A stretch of DNA of 64,000 bases from Escherichia phage ELT3: the sequence record PQ368571; one strand, given 5' to 3'. The notes below the pieces were generated by a model, which was given only the letters and a program-made list of their open reading frames with translations, did not search any database and was not told the origin of the DNA. The position numbers were made by a program, and so were the translations under genes. Shown piece after piece: positions 19,459 through 23,898 of this stretch; positions within the stretch are counted from its first letter, which is position 1; the number at the start of each line of letters is the position of its first letter.

Positions 19459-20028
19459 ATGATTCAATGTGTATTTGCGATCGGTGACACTAAAATGTCA
19501 GATGAAAATTGGGCTTTTGGTTTTAAAGGCGGTTTACCGTGGGGACGTCCAATCAAAAAGGACATGGAAAACTTTAAAATGCGCACTATGGGAGATGTTG
19601 ATTTTGCGGCGGTTGTAATGGGACGTAATACCTTTGAAAGTCTGCCTAAATCACTGGAAGGTCGTCTTAATGTGGTTATTAGCACCGATACCAGCAAGCC
19701 AGAACCGAAAGCTAAAAACGGCGACCAACCTGATGTGTATACTGGAATTGAATTGAAGGATCTGTTAAAAGTCCTGGAGAAAACGCAAGGTTTGGTAAGT
19801 GTTATCGGTGGACCTTCCCTGATTGAAAAAGCGGTTGACTTTGCGGACCGTATTGTGTTAACGTATGTTCAACGTTCAGGGATCAACGATCCATTTGAAT
19901 ATGATGTTGGTATCTCTAAGGAAATGATTCAGGAATTGTATTTTGACTTTGTAACCAAAGAAGAACATAATTACTTCCTTGATAATTACCTGATCAGCGA
20001 ACAAATTTTAGAACGTAAGAAGGCGTAA
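19459..20028 (+). CDS. frd: dihydrofolate reductase
   Basis: 189 aa; DHFR-like motifs (GLPW, VVMGR.TFESLP, VIGG); immediately upstream of td as in T4. Confidence 0.75.
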   Translation: MIQCVFAIGDTKMSDENWAFGFKGGLPWGRPIKKDMENFKMRTMGDVDFAAVVMGRNTFESLPKSLEGRLNVVISTDTSKPEPKAKNGDQPDVYTGIELKDLLKVLEKTQGLVSVIGGPSLIEKAVDFADRIVLTYVQRSGINDPFEYDVGISKEMIQELYFDFVTKEEHNYFLDNYLISEQILERKKA

Positions 20029-20029
20029 C

Positions 20030-20122
20030 ATGAAAATTCTGACAGATTATGAGTGCAAACATTGTGGTGAATCTTTGATGTTTGCTGGTAGTCGGTGCTT
20101 ACATTGCGGACGGGAACAATAA
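20030..20122 (+). CDS. putative zinc-ribbon micro-protein (30 aa)
   Basis: CKHCG...CLHCG motif; stop overlaps the next start (TAATG). Confidence 0.25.
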   Translation: MKILTDYECKHCGESLMFAGSRCLHCGREQ

Positions 20123-20391
20123 TGAAAGTCGGTATTATTCAATTATGGACGGCTACCAGTGAAAACTACGCAGTAGCCGTAGATTATTATGGTTTACAAT
20201 ATCTCTATGATGAAGCGAGCGCATCATGGCTTCCAGTACAGGAAAATAGCGACATTTCAAGACCTGCTACTGTATTCGACCGTGGCGTTGTCTTTATCGA
20301 TATTGACGAGACAGTAGCAAAACTGCGTAAGAAAGCAATCAACAAGAAAAAGGTGATGTGGGATGAAAGAATATTTGAAACTGTTGCGTGA
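20122..20391 (+). CDS. hypothetical protein (89 aa)
   Basis: ORF between frd and td; track ORF 20095..20391 trimmed to the ATG overlapping the upstream stop. Confidence 0.4.
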   Translation: MKVGIIQLWTATSENYAVAVDYYGLQYLYDEASASWLPVQENSDISRPATVFDRGVVFIDIDETVAKLRKKAINKKKVMWDERIFETVA

Positions 20392-21586
20392 TGTTCTTGA
20401 TAATGGTTGGCCTCGTGAAGACCGCACGGGGGTAGGTACGCTCTCTAAATTCGGTGCAGAGATGCGAATTGATTTAAGCAAGGGTTTCCCATTACTGACC
20501 ACTAAAAAGATGGCTACAGCCTCTGTAATTGGCGAATTGCTATGGTTTATGGAGGGATCACTTGACCGCCGTCGCTTACAGGAAATTACACGCGGCAAGT
20601 TTGACGAGGAAGCCTTTGATATTTGGCGCGGCAACTGTCTTGATATGAAAGAAAAGAATCCATTGCGATTCAATGGTTATAATGTCGGTAATATGTATGG
20701 TATGGCGTGGCGACGCAAACCGATTCATCCACATGGTGAAATCAAAATTAAGCGCGTTAAGAGCAAATATACACATACATTTAAGCACCCGTGGGTAGAA
20801 GACTTTACGCCAACCAATGACACAGAAGACCGTTTATGTGCTATCTGGCGTGGTATGCGTTATGAAGAGTTTGATTATATTCTGGTAGCAGACCACTGGA
20901 AGACTCAATCTAATTTTGTTAATGATGCATATTGCTTGTGGGGATTCCAGGAATGGGTAGATGATGGTTATTTCGGTTATCTGCTTGATAGTGATTATCT
21001 GGGTGGGGATATTATAGCACCGGATACCACGATGTTTGTTAGTATGGACGTAGACACATCAAGCACTAAAGACGATGAAGAATATGTCTATCGCCCGAAG
21101 ATTTGGGAAGACCAGTTACAAAAAGTTATTGACATGATCAAGAATGATCCATATAGTCGTCGTATTATCATTGATTCATGGAACGTACAGGAAACGCATA
21201 ATGCTGTGTTAGGTGTATGTCATCCGATGGTACAGTTTTATGTTTCCAACGACAACAAATTGAGTTGTTTATTTTTCATGCGTTCGAATGATCTCTTTTT
21301 AGGGAATCCGTTCAACGTAGCGAGCTATGCACTGTTAACGCATATCATCGCGAAGATTTGCGGGTTAGAAGTTGGCGAACTGGTTTATCAGTGTGGGGAT
21401 TGCCACATTTACAAAAACCATTTTGATCAAGTTATGGAACAGTTAAGCCGTGTTCCGTTTGATAAACCAACAATTGAGTTGCCGGAATTTAAATCTTTAG
21501 ATGAGGTATTGACAAAGACTCCGAAAGATTTTAAAATTCACAACTATCAAAGCCATCCAGCGATCACCGCTCAAATGGCAGTATAA
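20363..21586 (+). CDS. td: thymidylate synthase, intron-less, with a ~115-aa internal insertion
   Basis: ThyA motifs (DRTGVGT, GFPLLTTKK, RRIIIDSWNV, CHPMVQFYV, LSC.FFMRS.D.FLG.PFN.ASYALL, GDCHIY, C-terminal MAV); 407 aa versus 264-286 aa for E. coli/T4 enzymes. Confidence 0.85.
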   Translation: MKEYLKLLRDVLDNGWPREDRTGVGTLSKFGAEMRIDLSKGFPLLTTKKMATASVIGELLWFMEGSLDRRRLQEITRGKFDEEAFDIWRGNCLDMKEKNPLRFNGYNVGNMYGMAWRRKPIHPHGEIKIKRVKSKYTHTFKHPWVEDFTPTNDTEDRLCAIWRGMRYEEFDYILVADHWKTQSNFVNDAYCLWGFQEWVDDGYFGYLLDSDYLGGDIIAPDTTMFVSMDVDTSSTKDDEEYVYRPKIWEDQLQKVIDMIKNDPYSRRIIIDSWNVQETHNAVLGVCHPMVQFYVSNDNKLSCLFFMRSNDLFLGNPFNVASYALLTHIIAKICGLEVGELVYQCGDCHIYKNHFDQVMEQLSRVPFDKPTIELPEFKSLDEVLTKTPKDFKIHNYQSHPAITAQMAV

Positions 21587-21591
21587 ACAAA

Positions 21592-21607
21592 GGGGGCGAA
21601 AGCCCCC
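21592..21607 (+). promoter_or_regulatory. GNRA-tetraloop RNA hairpin (GGGGGC-GAAA-GCCCCC) between td and nrdA
   Basis: Perfect hairpin without a following U-tract; same sequence as the minus-strand transcript hairpin at 10774..10789. Confidence 0.4.
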
Positions 21608-21654
21608 AATATGGAGGATAAACTTGTTCCTGCTAAAATATGAAGTGAGGTAAT

Positions 21655-23898
21655 ATGATTAAAAATGTTGTTAAGTCTTCCGGTCTGACTGTTCCGTTTG
21701 AAAAAGAAAAAGTAATGAAAATTCTGGAAGCGGCAGCCGAAGGTCATAACGTTGATCCATATGAATTGTTTGATATGGTTGAACCACTTCTGACAGAAGG
21801 TATGTCTACCAATGATATCCAGAAAGTATTGATTAAGGTCGCAGCAGATAACATTACTGTCGAAACACCCGATTATCAATATGTAGCAAGTAACCTTGCA
21901 ATGTTCGCGCTTCGTAAATCAGTATACGGTCAATTCCAACCGATTGATTTTTACAGCCATATTGAGCGTAATATTGCAACCGGAAAATATGATCGCGAAA
22001 TTCTGCAAAAGTATTCCCGTGAAGAAGTGGAATATCTGGAGAAATTCATCGACCATAAACTTGATTTTAAAATGACCTATGCTGGTGCGATGCAGTTAAA
22101 AGAGAAATATCTTGTTCAGGATCGCAGCACTAAGAAAATCATCGAAACACCGCAATTTGCGTATATGCTGATCGGTATGTGCTTACATCAAGAAGAGACA
22201 GAAAATCGACTTGAACATGTGATTGATTTTTATAATGCTGTTGCGAATAAGCAAATCTCTCTGCCTACTCCGATTATGGCGGGTGTGCGTACTCCAACAC
22301 GACAATTTAGTTCGTGTGTGGTGATTGAAAGTGATGACTCATTGCAGGGTATTAATGAAACCGCAAATGCAATCATTAAGTATATTAGCAAGCGTGCTGG
22401 TATCGGTATCAACGCTGGCATGATTCGCGCGGAAGGATCTAAGATCGGGCATGGTGAAGTTCGTCATACTGGCGTTATCCCATTCTGGAAACATTTTCAG
22501 ACTGCCGTTAAGTCATGCTCACAAGGCGGTATTCGTGGCGGGGCAGCGACTCTCTATTACCCAATGTGGCATTTAGAATTTGAAAGTCTTATTGTGTTGA
22601 AGAATAACAAAGGGGTAGAAGATAACCGCATTCGTCATCTTGACTACGGCGTACAGATTAATAACCTGATGGTAGAGCGATTCCTTAAACGGGATTACAT
22701 TACTCTGTTTAGTCCAGATGTTGCGGGTGGCTTGTTGTGGGATCTGTACTTCCGAGATGAGGAAGGTTTCCGCCAGCTTTACGAAAAACTGGAAAAAGAT
22801 CCGAGTGTTCGTAAAACTCGTGTTAAAGCCGAAGACCTGTTTTTAGCGGTGGCAATTGAACGTTTTAACACTGGTCGAATCTACCCAACGTTCACAGACA
22901 ACATGAACAATCACGGGGCGTTTATTCGTAATGTAGCACCGATTAAACAATCTAACCTGTGTTGTGAAATTGCACTGCCTACTAAACCGATGGGTCGTGA
23001 TGATTCAGAGATCAGCCTATGCACTTTGGCAGCATATGTTTTAGGTAATTTCGATATCGAAAACATGGAAGAAGTAGAACGCATTGCTATGGTTATGGTG
23101 CGTGCACTTGACAACCTGTTAGATTATCAGGATTATCCTGTAGAACAAGCTCTGACAGCCAAAAAACGTCGCTCTCTGGGTGTTGGTGTTACTAACTTTG
23201 CATCATATCTAGCAGATAATTTCTTCACGTATGAAGACGCTAACGAGTTTACGCATAAAACGTTTGAACGCTTGCAATATGCTCTGATTAAGGCTAGTGT
23301 GCGACTGGCTAAAGAGAAGGGTGCTTGCGAACTGATGCACGAAACACGCTATGGTCGCGGTGAACTTCCTATCGACTGGTACAAAAAGACAGTAGATGAA
23401 CTGGTTGATCCGGTGTATGAGATGGATTGGGAAGAACTGCGCGAAGACCTGAAAAAATATGGCATTCGTAACAGTACGCTTTCGGCGCTGATGCCCTGTG
23501 AGTCGTCTTCTCAGGTGTCTAACAGCACAAACGGTATTGAACCGCCTCGCGGGATTGTATCGGTTAAAGGATCGAAAGAAGGGCAATTTAATCAGGTTAT
23601 TCCGAACGTAGAGAATAATGCTGATGTTATTGACCTGCTTTGGACACTGATCAAGAAAGGTAACAAGCCTTATCTGACACTGGCAGCGATCATGCAGAAG
23701 TTTGTGGATCAGGCGATTAGTTCCAATACATCCTATGATCCAAGCACTTATAAGACTGGTAAAGTCGATATTGCTGATGTGTTAGATGATATGTTGTTCG
23801 CTCAACATTACGGTCTGAAAACCCTGTATTATGCGAACGTTCGCGACGGTGCAGATGGTACGGAAGACGCTATCGAGTGCTCATCTTGCAAGCTGTAA
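21655..23898 (+). CDS. nrdA: ribonucleoside-diphosphate reductase large subunit
   Basis: 747 aa; class Ia RNR alpha motifs (N-terminal ATP cone, SNLC.EI, C-terminal C..CKL); synteny with nrdB. Confidence 0.9.
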   Translation: MIKNVVKSSGLTVPFEKEKVMKILEAAAEGHNVDPYELFDMVEPLLTEGMSTNDIQKVLIKVAADNITVETPDYQYVASNLAMFALRKSVYGQFQPIDFYSHIERNIATGKYDREILQKYSREEVEYLEKFIDHKLDFKMTYAGAMQLKEKYLVQDRSTKKIIETPQFAYMLIGMCLHQEETENRLEHVIDFYNAVANKQISLPTPIMAGVRTPTRQFSSCVVIESDDSLQGINETANAIIKYISKRAGIGINAGMIRAEGSKIGHGEVRHTGVIPFWKHFQTAVKSCSQGGIRGGAATLYYPMWHLEFESLIVLKNNKGVEDNRIRHLDYGVQINNLMVERFLKRDYITLFSPDVAGGLLWDLYFRDEEGFRQLYEKLEKDPSVRKTRVKAEDLFLAVAIERFNTGRIYPTFTDNMNNHGAFIRNVAPIKQSNLCCEIALPTKPMGRDDSEISLCTLAAYVLGNFDIENMEEVERIAMVMVRALDNLLDYQDYPVEQALTAKKRRSLGVGVTNFASYLADNFFTYEDANEFTHKTFERLQYALIKASVRLAKEKGACELMHETRYGRGELPIDWYKKTVDELVDPVYEMDWEELREDLKKYGIRNSTLSALMPCESSSQVSNSTNGIEPPRGIVSVKGSKEGQFNQVIPNVENNADVIDLLWTLIKKGNKPYLTLAAIMQKFVDQAISSNTSYDPSTYKTGKVDIADVLDDMLFAQHYGLKTLYYANVRDGADGTEDAIECSSCKL

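What the first reader, a model, noticed from the sequence alone, without database searches (positions are those of the whole stretch)
20363..21586. Intron-less thymidylate synthase carrying a ~115-aa insertion
T4 td is interrupted by a group I intron; this td is one continuous 407-aa ORF. Compared with ThyA (E. coli 264 aa, T4 286 aa) there is an insertion of about 115 residues between the conserved GxxYGxxWR segment (here NMYGMAWRRKP) and the DQ...NDP.SRR segment (approximately nt 20700..21060). The insert (KPIHPHGEIKIK...CAIWRGMRYEEFDYILVADHWK...DTSSTKDDEEYVYRPKIWE) lacks intein boundary residues. It may be a novel accessory domain in an essential enzyme.
Basis: seen in the sequence. Interest (0 to 1): 0.5.

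Follow-up and report, generated by a model that had tools for sequence, protein, structure and literature searches.

The report
Eroded homing-endonuclease-like domain inside thymidylate synthase
This phage's thymidylate synthase carries an extra 132-residue folded domain that is a shrunken, probably inactive remnant of a homing-endonuclease-like DNA cassette, and the full-size cassette sits unspliced at the same loop in many other phage thymidylate synthases.

Summary
ORF 20363-21586 encodes a 407-aa ThyA-type thymidylate synthase (TS) with intact catalytic residues and no intron or intein. It has one block insertion, aa 118-249 (nt 20714-21109), between YGMAWR and DQ. The window is a Krischvirus (RB49/JSE/GEC-3S-like), and all 58 td genes found in that genus carry the insert.

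The insert is not a unique domain. A profile built only from 176-274-aa inserts at the same TS loop in other phages matches it at 69 bits (best shuffle 11). Of the 150 best cluster representatives, 82 are TS proteins interrupted at this position.

The long inserts match phrog_2081 "HNH endonuclease" (E down to 2e-50), and one also has an I-HmuI NUMOD-like domain. Free-standing relatives lie between nrdA and nrdB, between primase and polymerase, beside td, and next to a group I intron splitting terL.

In Asteriusvirus the insert is present or absent among syntenic genomes and comes with a sharply bounded divergent tract of flanking td sequence. That indicates gene-conversion mobility.

The Krischvirus copy keeps only the central module. 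It has lost the family's conserved Lys/Tyr/Ser/Cys/Asn, is strongly acidic, and is still under purifying selection (omega about 0.24-0.33). Most likely it is a fixed, inactive passenger domain.

The parts
20363..21586 (+). td gene: 407-aa ThyA-type thymidylate synthase including the in-frame insert (stop codon 21584-21586)
   Evidence: catalytic residues R21, E58, W88, R266/R267, C286, H287, R307, S308, D310, N318, H348 and Y350 are invariant in alignment A2
20363..20713 (+). TS N-terminal core, aa 1-117, ending in NMYGMAWR. Its last ~27 codons (CLD..NP.RFNGYNVGNMY) resemble the upstream flank that travels with the insert in other phages
20714..21109 (+). The insert, aa 118-249 (132 aa), one block between R117 and D250
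20714..20752 (+). First stalk strand (aa 118-130, basic: RKPIHPHGEIKIK)
   Evidence: AF2 secondary structure E118-130; net charge +7 for insert residues 1-26
20801..21091 (+). Segment homologous to the central module of the long TS inserts and free-standing relatives (aa 147-243; positions 101-206 of the long-insert HMM)
   Evidence: 69.3 bits, E 1e-19, against a best of 11.2 bits in 5000 shuffles; weak direct match to phrog_2081 positions 132-193, E 0.075
20819..20962 (+). Helical part of the module (aa 153-200; helices 153-171, 177-180, 182-189, 195-200). Keeps family core residues W162, V175, W179, F185, D188; the family Cys is Ala176
20978..21043 (+). Beta-hairpin with a long connecting loop (aa 206-227; LLDSDYLGGDIIAPDTTMFV). 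This is the eroded counterpart of the family motif LDKDYYGS..YSP.TC.F, with K210S, Y218I, S219A and C223T
21044..21082 (+). Acidic linker (aa 228-240, SMDVDTSSTKDDE) where the family has a conserved Asn (N231D here). Long forms continue here into a C-terminal NUMOD-like module that is absent in the window
21083..21112 (+). Second stalk strand (aa 241-250, EYVYRPKIWE-D) returning to the TS core
   Evidence: AF2 E241-250; the 'YV.RP.I' segment is conserved across short and long inserts
21110..21583 (+). TS C-terminal core, aa 250-407, with the catalytic Cys286
21102..21442 (+). Recombinant patch of td core directly 3' of the insert (gene nt ~740-1080). It is shared with phage KFS-EC and 25-50% divergent from other Krischviruses whose inserts are (near-)identical

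Best explanation
The gene encodes a working ThyA-type thymidylate synthase. Its surface loop after the YGxxWR helix is a loop that varies in length across the family (established knowledge, from memory: one of the two eukaryotic TS inserts lies here). That loop carries an unspliced 132-residue domain.

The domain is a cut-down descendant of a homing-endonuclease-like cassette. In full form the cassette is 245-275 aa and has three parts: a beta-rich N-module, a central 'W..M..RC...VC.RW..F.NF...LDKDYYG..YSP.TC.F...N' module, and a NUMOD-like helix-turn-helix tail. The full form sits at exactly this TS position in many phages. It also occurs as free-standing genes and as an ORF next to a group I intron.

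The cassette spreads between td alleles at the DNA level by gene conversion, taking with it about 27 upstream and 100 downstream td codons. Because it lands in frame in a permissive loop and folds on a two-strand stalk, TS can tolerate it without RNA or protein splicing.

In Krischviruses the cassette is fixed and has decayed. The N and C modules are gone. The conserved Lys, Tyr, Ser, Cys and Asn positions are replaced, and the globule has become very acidic. It therefore most likely no longer binds or cuts DNA. It persists as a passenger domain, and purifying selection keeps it foldable so that TS stays functional.

Shown: the block insertion, the homology, the wide distribution, the habitats of relatives, the conversion tract, the residue erosion, the charge shift and omega below 1. 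Inferred: that the full-length cassette is an active endonuclease, that it homes by cleaving td alleles lacking it, and that the Krischvirus copy has no function of its own.
For: - TS identity and intact catalytic residues. Context frd-td-nrdA.
- One block of 132 aa.
- Homology of the insert to long inserts, using a profile built without any Krischvirus-like sequence: 69.3 bits against a best shuffle of 11.2.
- Long inserts match phrog_2081 'HNH endonuclease' at E 1e-16 to 2e-50, and also phrog_953, 374, 3377 and 8790. PF22083 I-HmuI NUMOD-like scores 30.4 bits against a threshold of 27 in P0037.
- The family is very large (48,997 representatives at E<=1e-3), and 82 of the best 150 are TS interrupted at TS-profile position ~119-125.
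- 1,446 places in 1,020 phage records, mostly free-standing genes. Positions include nrdA|nrdB, primase|DNA polymerase, next to td in Bacillus phage Chotacabras, and between two terL fragments right after a group I intron match at E 2e-6.
- That intron-adjacent ORF and the other free-standing copies have no other Pfam or NCBIfam domain, so any nuclease activity would have to lie in this unit.
- Asteriusvirus: td is 309 aa (121Q), 517 aa (UE-S1) or 546 aa (ph0011) in syntenic loci whose upstream flanks are 92-96% identical. Within td, identity is 96-98% for codons 1-90, 42-62% across the insert and adjacent core, then 91-98% again.
- Intermediate-length inserts lacking one or another module exist.
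- Erosion in the window: K210S, Y218I, S219A, C223T, N231D, C176A, R178H, with hydrophobic core residues kept.
- Module net charge is -12 (pI 4.05), against medians of 0 and +1 in free-standing and long forms.
- Confident fold as a stalked domain: pLDDT 94-95.
- Median pairwise omega is 0.24; a minimum-event count gives 19 nonsynonymous to 14 synonymous changes, p=0.002 against neutrality.
Against: - No member of the family has a canonical HNH Pfam match, and no PDB sequence match exists even at E<=10.
- The conversion tract in Asteriusvirus could come from ordinary homologous recombination between co-infecting phages without any endonuclease.
- Insert identity between Krischvirus and the P0003-5 lineage (52-54%) is not far below my estimate for the core (~68%, derived). 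The insert is also fixed in 58 of 58 genomes with omega below 1. Both facts fit a domain that has acquired a use as well as they fit a constrained passenger.
- The group I intron match in vB_Kp_Z1 is below Rfam's gathering score (37.8 against 50 bits).
Confidence: 0.68

Rival explanations
1. Exapted accessory domain. The relic has been recruited for a new job in Krischviruses and their relatives. Examples would be docking TS to other enzymes of the dNTP-synthesising complex, binding a host or phage protein, or regulating TS. Under this view it is kept for that function rather than only for foldability.
For: - Fixed in all 58 Krischvirus td genes.
- Omega 0.24-0.33, significantly below 1.
- High-confidence compact fold.
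- The segment DAYCLWGFQEWVD and the stalk are conserved across short forms that are only 52-54% identical overall in the insert.
- A shift to a strongly acidic surface could reflect a new interaction surface.
Against: - No partner or activity is known.
- Omega in the insert is about five times higher than in the TS core within the same comparisons (0.24 against 0.05).
- A 12-nt indel is tolerated inside the domain.
- Purifying selection is also expected for any domain whose misfolding would inactivate an essential enzyme.
Confidence: 0.24
2. Still-active mobile element. The Krischvirus insert itself retains DNA binding or cleavage and drives its own inheritance, or excludes competing phages.
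For: - The insert is identical at nucleotide level between the window and phage kvi, while the adjoining td core differs at dS ~0.4.
- A recombinant patch begins exactly at the insert's 3' edge.
Against: - The N-terminal beta module and the C-terminal NUMOD-like module are missing.
- The most conserved polar and Cys positions of the family are replaced.
- Net charge is -12.
- No Krischvirus td allele lacking the insert was found that it could home into.
Confidence: 0.05
3. Intein, unrecognised intron or annotation/assembly artefact. The extra sequence would be removed at the protein or RNA level, or would not be real.
For: T4 td has a group I intron, and thymidylate synthase genes (ThyX type) of actinobacteriophages carry inteins.
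Against: - The reading frame is continuous in 58 independent genomes.
- There is no Rfam match and no Hint or intein domain.
- The boundaries are R118 and E249|D250, not Cys/Ser ... His-Asn|Cys/Ser/Thr.
- The stalk strands are modelled with high confidence as part of the TS fold.
Confidence: 0.02
4. The domain arose within TS and the free-standing genes derive from it, rather than the reverse.
For: 82 of the best 150 matches to the insert profile are TS proteins. This is expected, however, because the profile was built from TS inserts.
Against: - The family has about 49,000 representatives, mostly outside TS, including tandem repeats and fusions to AP2-like repeats.
- Its members are found in 1,020 phage genomes of many families.
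- TS proteins without the insert are the overwhelming majority (2,486 phage records with TS).
Confidence: 0.02

Closest known systems
Inteins carrying homing endonucleases (for example in phage RNR, terminase and ThyX genes)
   Same: An in-frame insertion of a selfish, endonuclease-type element into a conserved DNA-metabolism gene. It is translated as part of the host protein, has a sporadic distribution, and degenerates into 'mini' forms.
   Different: There is no Hint/splicing domain and no splice-junction residues (and the sequence). The insert is predicted to stay in the mature protein as a stalked surface domain.
T4 td group I intron with I-TevI
   Same: The same host gene (td). A selfish element is tolerated in an essential gene, and spread is accompanied by co-conversion of flanking exon sequence.
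   Different: The mechanism of tolerance differs (RNA splicing there, a permissive loop here). The insertion site differs (from memory, T4's intron lies in the FLG|LPFN active-site region, about aa 314 here). The nuclease family differs (GIY-YIG there). No intron is present here.
Free-standing phage homing endonuclease genes (T4 mob/seg type), and specifically the phrog_2081 / 953 / 374 / 3377 'HNH endonuclease' PHROG families
   Same: The long TS inserts are homologous over ~220 residues to phrog_2081. Relatives sit between nrdA and nrdB, between primase and polymerase, and next to td, as T4 mobE does between nrdA and nrdB (PMC2790892).
   Different: Here the unit is fused in frame inside its probable target gene. 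The window's copy retains only the central module, with the conserved polar residues lost. No canonical HNH motif is detectable in any member.
PacI restriction endonuclease (His-Me finger group 20: HTH-like N part plus beta-beta-alpha finger, with Tyr replacing the catalytic His; PMC5714182)
   Different: The score is weak and Foldseek does not reproduce it. There is no sequence-profile match. Equivalence of the Tyr was not tested, and the window has Ile at that position.
Lineage-specific TS inserts (from memory: the L. casei/S. aureus 50-residue small-domain insert, the eukaryotic inserts, the T4 TS surface insertions)
   Same: Surface insertions are tolerated by the TS fold, and the loop after YGxxWR is one of the length-variable sites. 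Asteriusvirus 121Q has its own unrelated ~35-aa extension there.
   Different: Those inserts are short extensions of TS secondary structure, not an autonomous domain with homologues outside TS. The L. casei insert lies before YGxxWR (alignments), not after it.

Membership tests
Thymidylate synthase ThyA/Td (PF00303, TIGR03284) | Profile match above the curated threshold | tested here: met
   PF00303 279.6 bits (cutoff 24.3). TIGR03284 276.7 bits (cutoff 108.35). PDB TS chains at E 1e-66.
Thymidylate synthase ThyA/Td (PF00303, TIGR03284) | Catalytic and substrate-binding residues: Cys nucleophile, the Arg residues binding the dUMP phosphate, and the Asp/Asn/His/Tyr of the active site | tested here: met
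   R21, E58, W88, R266, R267, C286, H287, R307, S308, D310, N318, H348 and Y350 are invariant or nearly invariant in alignments A1/A2. The assignment to E. coli numbering is from memory.
Thymidylate synthase ThyA/Td (PF00303, TIGR03284) | dUMP to dTMP activity of the full-length, unspliced protein | not testable with these tools
   Needs an enzyme assay and intact-mass measurement.
Intein | Hint splicing domain, N-terminal Cys/Ser, C-terminal His-Asn followed by Cys/Ser/Thr | tested here: not met
   No Pfam Hint or intein match. The insert begins R118-K-P and ends W248-E249 followed by D250.
Group I intron (as in T4 td) | Catalytic RNA structure interrupting the reading frame | tested here: not met
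   Continuous ORF. No Rfam match at E<=1 in 19900-22000.
phrog_2081-type homing-endonuclease-like family (Pfam-unclassified two-module unit) | Significant profile similarity to the family | tested here: met
   69.3 bits, E 1e-19, to a profile of 23 long TS inserts that themselves hit phrog_2081 at E down to 2e-50. The direct PHROG match of the window insert is only E 0.075.
phrog_2081-type homing-endonuclease-like family (Pfam-unclassified two-module unit) | Complete unit: N-terminal beta-rich module plus central W..M..RC / LDKD..YS..TC.F module (often with a NUMOD-like HTH) | tested here: not met
   Only profile positions 101-206 are present. The N and C modules are absent.
phrog_2081-type homing-endonuclease-like family (Pfam-unclassified two-module unit) | Conserved polar/Cys positions (C176, R178, K210, Y218, S219, C223, N231 in window numbering) | tested here: not met
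   The window has A, H, S, I, A, T, D at these positions. They are 40-97% conserved in 104 long TS inserts and 107 free-standing domains.
phrog_2081-type homing-endonuclease-like family (Pfam-unclassified two-module unit) | Homing-endonuclease-type genomic behaviour: intergenic or intron positions in conserved DNA-metabolism genes, presence/absence polymorphism, co-conversion tracts | tested here: met
   Met for relatives, not for the window copy: habitats; Asteriusvirus polymorphism and tract. In Krischvirus the insert is fixed.
phrog_2081-type homing-endonuclease-like family (Pfam-unclassified two-module unit) | Site-specific DNA cleavage | not testable with these tools
   No characterised member was found in PDB or in the papers searched.
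Canonical HNH / His-Me finger nucleases | HNH-type profile match (PF01844, PF13392 and related) | tested here: not met
   No such match for the window insert, the long inserts or the free-standing relatives.
Canonical HNH / His-Me finger nucleases | Beta-beta-alpha-metal fold with a catalytic His (or the PacI-type Tyr) and a metal-binding Asn/His | tested here: inconclusive

The most novel reading that the evidence does not exclude
Homing-endonuclease genes may have a fourth way of living inside essential genes, besides free-standing, intron-borne and intein-borne. In this mode they insert in frame, without splicing, into a permissive surface loop, so the host enzyme is made as an enzyme-nuclease chimera. 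On this reading the full-length TS inserts (UE-S1, KP13-7, ph0011, Vibrio D69 and at least 82 clusters at 50% identity) are active endonucleases of a Pfam-unclassified, possibly PacI-like, family. They would cut td alleles lacking the insert near the YGxxWR|DQ codons and be copied in together with flanking td sequence. The Krischvirus domain would then be the end stage of the invasion, fixation and decay cycle, frozen because it cannot be excised cleanly.
Probability: 0.4. Interest if true: 0.75.

Novelty: new variant of a known kind. Interest (0 to 1): 0.55.

Why it matters
Selfish endonuclease genes are thought to survive in essential genes only if an intron or intein removes them from the product. 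Here a homologous cassette appears to stay in the finished enzyme, in a widely used model phage group (RB49/JSE) and in many other phages. If confirmed, this has four consequences:
- It shows a splicing-independent route for such elements.
- It explains why these TS genes are repeatedly misannotated as 'HNH endonuclease' or 'hypothetical protein'.
- It defines a large endonuclease-like family that Pfam does not cover.
- It identifies a TS loop that accepts 130-275-residue domains, which is useful for protein engineering.

For this window alone, the practical result is that the 'novel domain' is a decayed relic and not a new enzymatic function.

Tried and rejected
- The search for homologous proteins with the insert alone returned nothing because of its word index. 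The full-length query and the exhaustive profile search were needed instead.
- Pfam and NCBIfam have no model for the insert or its free-standing relatives.
- A PDB sequence-profile search was empty even at E<=10.
- The AFDB50 fold library was unavailable.
- Intein and intron readings are rejected (and the junction residues).
- A second copy of the module elsewhere in the 64-kb window was not found. There is only a 13-bit hit in the small ORF upstream of td, barely above the best shuffle.
- The search for related loci in IMG/VR gave only two Krischvirus loci and four uninterrupted TS loci, so GenBank records were used for the selection analysis.
- The rough binomial test printed used rounded counts and is superseded.
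- The RB49 genome paper (PMC135041) is not held. Reviews of T4-type mobile elements and of jumbo phages do not mention an interrupted TS.
- I could not read model coordinates, so contacts between the insert and the TS core, dimer interface or active site were not measured.
Full report
**1. The observation**

The ORF at 20363-21586 (+) is a continuous 407-codon frame. It lies between frd (19459-20028) and nrdA (21655-23898), with a small ORF (20095-20391) overlapping its start. RB49 has the same layout.

The DNA is 99.4% identical to phage GEC-3S and 91% identical to RB49, so the window is a Krischvirus. All 58 matching phage records contain the gene at full length.

The protein matches PF00303 at 279.6 bits in two stretches, the second being aa 250-407 against profile positions 110-266. 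It also matches TIGR03284 above its cutoff and solved TS structures at E about 1e-66.

All the extra length falls in one block between R117 and D250. That block is 132 residues, against 10 in E. coli and 5 in T4, and spans nt 20714-21109. The catalytic residues are all present.

No intron is detectable. There is no intein domain, and the junction residues are not those of an intein.

**2. The insert is a folded domain**

AlphaFold2 with a 35-sequence alignment gives mean pLDDT 94.8 and pTM 0.92, with 88-98 across the insert. The insert alone gives pLDDT 94.0.

Two long strands (118-130 and 241-250) form a stalk leaving and re-entering the TS core. Between them lie four helices (153-200) and a beta-hairpin with a long loop (206-227).

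**3. The insert is not unique**

A search with the whole protein found TS proteins of 401-414 aa at 51-63% identity. It also found many of 454-613 aa at 33-50% identity, including Klebsiella phage phiKp_21. In the alignment, all carry extra residues at the same site, and these residues are alignable with the window's insert.

I built a profile from the 23 inserts of at least 176 aa, excluding every Krischvirus-like sequence. It scores the window's insert at 69.3 bits (E 1e-19). The best of 5000 shuffles scores 11.2 bits.

The match covers only profile positions 101-206, the central module. The long forms add an N-terminal beta-rich module and a C-terminal module. Intermediate lengths lacking one or the other also exist.

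**4. What the long inserts are**

They match phrog_2081 'HNH endonuclease' at E 1e-16 to 2e-50 over about 220 profile positions. They also match phrog_953, 374, 3377 and 8790. The tail of one of them (P0037) passes Pfam's threshold for the I-HmuI NUMOD-like domain. The window's insert alone hits the same part of phrog_2081 only at E 0.075.

An exhaustive profile search of 1.84 billion cluster representatives found 48,997 matches at E<=1e-3 and 431 at E<=1e-30. Of the best 150, 82 are TS proteins interrupted at TS-profile position ~119-125. The other 68 are not TS. The non-TS group includes 175-300-aa proteins made of just the two-module unit, tandem duplications of it, and fusions to AP2-like repeats.

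None of these has a Pfam or NCBIfam nuclease domain. The 'HNH' label is therefore an annotation, not something I could verify.

In sequenced phages the module occurs at 1,446 places in 1,020 records. I inspected several of these:
- between nrdA and nrdB in Salmonella phage UAB_1;
- between primase and DNA polymerase in Vibrio phage D252;
- just upstream of td in Bacillus phage Chotacabras;
- between two fragments of terL in Klebsiella phage vB_Kp_Z1, immediately after a group I intron match (RF00028, 37.8 bits, E 2e-6, below the gathering score of 50).

These are the habitats of homing endonuclease genes. T4 mobE between nrdA and nrdB is a described example (PMC2790892).

**5. Fold**

The match is weak. 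Foldseek against PDB found nothing, and the PDB sequence-profile search was empty. BFVD returned another interrupted TS, small uncharacterised phage proteins, and weaker hits labelled DNA-binding, NUMOD-like or homing endonuclease. I treat the PacI link as a lead only.

**6. Evidence for mobility**

Three syntenic genomes of the genus Asteriusvirus have td starting at the same position. The td lengths are 309 aa (121Q), 517 aa (UE-S1) and 546 aa (ph0011). Their upstream flanks are 92-96% identical.

Within td, UE-S1 and 121Q are 96-98% identical for codons 1-90. Identity is 42-62% from codon ~91 through the insert and about 100 codons beyond it, and returns to 91-98% at the end. ph0011 shows a different insert variant with different breakpoints.

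The insert therefore entered as a DNA cassette with co-converted td sequence, at least twice in one genus. This is what endonuclease-driven homing produces. Ordinary recombination between co-infecting phages is not excluded.

**7. The state of the Krischvirus copy**

I compared it with 107 free-standing and 104 long TS-insert domains. The window keeps the hydrophobic core: W162, V175, W179, F185, L208 and F225. It has replaced the family's conserved polar and Cys positions: C176A, R178H, K210S, Y218I, S219A, C223T and N231D.

Its module has net charge -12 and pI 4.05. The medians are 0 (pI 7.1) in free-standing copies and +1 (pI 8.2) in long TS inserts.

Among ten Krischvirus td genes, median pairwise omega is 0.24 in the insert and 0.05 in the core. 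A minimum-event count gives 19 nonsynonymous and 14 synonymous changes over 319 and 77 sites, p = 0.002 against neutrality. A 12-nt indel is tolerated inside the domain.

**8. Interpretation**

The most economical reading is a homing-endonuclease-like cassette that invaded td in frame at a length-variable loop. It became fixed in the Krischvirus lineage, lost its outer modules and functional residues, and survives as a stalked passenger domain. Its foldability is under selection because TS is needed.

What is not shown:
- that the intact cassette cleaves DNA;
- that homing rather than plain recombination moves it;
- that the relic has no acquired role.

An exapted function is the main rival. 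The fixation, omega below 1, and the conservation between Krischvirus and the P0003-5 lineage (52-54% in the insert, against roughly 68% that I estimate for the core) are compatible with it.

**9. Novelty**

I found no paper describing an interrupted ThyA of this kind. Inteins in phage thymidylate synthase genes concern ThyX (IPR003669) and have splicing domains.

GenBank annotators have called these genes 'thymidylate synthase', 'HNH endonuclease' (Vibrio phage D69) or 'hypothetical protein' (phiKp_21, ph0011). This suggests the architecture has not been recognised.

The window's own feature is a decayed member of this class. Interest lies mainly in the class: an unspliced endonuclease-like insertion in an essential enzyme.

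Noticed in passing
window 21102-21442 (td gene nt ~740-1080, aa ~247-360): The window and phage KFS-EC share a ~340-nt patch of td core that starts at the 3' edge of the insert. It differs from other Krischviruses by up to 28-30 of 60 nt (peak at gene nt 901-960), while the rest of the gene is 95-100% identical. GoldenSnicker has only the distal part of the patch. The peak coincides with the segment homologous to the T4 td intron insertion / I-TevI cleavage region (FLG|NPFN; T4 position from memory). The patch could therefore be a scar of a past homing or resistance event.
   Followed up: partly
window 20095-20391 (+): A 98-aa ORF between frd and td overlaps the td start by 29 nt and is annotated 'hypothetical protein' in all Krischvirus records. 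It gives a 13.4-bit hit (E 0.0017 over 603 ORFs) to the long-insert profile, barely above the best shuffle (11.2 bits). This is probably chance.
   Followed up: partly
window ~20875/20876 (after aa 171): RB49, KFS-EC and one IMG/VR contig have a 12-nt insertion (SEYN) inside the insert's helical region relative to the window. The domain therefore tolerates small indels.
   Followed up: no
L007:2641-4074 (Vibrio phage D69); L019:4001-5641 (Escherichia phage ph0011); P0007 (Klebsiella phage phiKp_21): Thymidylate synthase genes carrying the long insert are annotated 'HNH endonuclease' or 'hypothetical protein' in GenBank. Pfam shows D69's CDS is a TS (E 2e-47).
   Followed up: yes
P0159, P0166, P0169, P0175, P0186, P0189, P0190, P0200, P0240, P0246, P0254, P0260: Twelve of the 82 interrupted TS representatives have a second, smaller gap (about 25-45 aa) at TS-profile position ~172-176. 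This suggests another recurrent insertion site in the C-terminal core.
   Followed up: no
L018:4001-4930 (Escherichia phage 121Q td): The Asteriusvirus TS without the long insert has its own unrelated ~35-aa extension at the same loop (WREWEDYKFSSSTEEIQELKDKGYKVIDYTGSHGVVMKRTTDQ). The site is therefore generally permissive.
   Followed up: no
L021:680-3368 (Klebsiella phage vB_Kp_Z1): The large terminase gene is annotated as two fragments separated by a group I intron match (1194-1410, E 2e-6, below the gathering score) and a 201-aa ORF made only of the two-module unit. This is a candidate intron-encoded endonuclease of a family that Pfam does not cover.
   Followed up: partly
L020:1477-3414 (Bacillus phage Chotacabras): A free-standing 240-aa member of the family lies immediately upstream of an uninterrupted td, separated by a 78-aa Cys-rich ORF. 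This is a possible free-standing stage of a td-targeting element.
   Followed up: no
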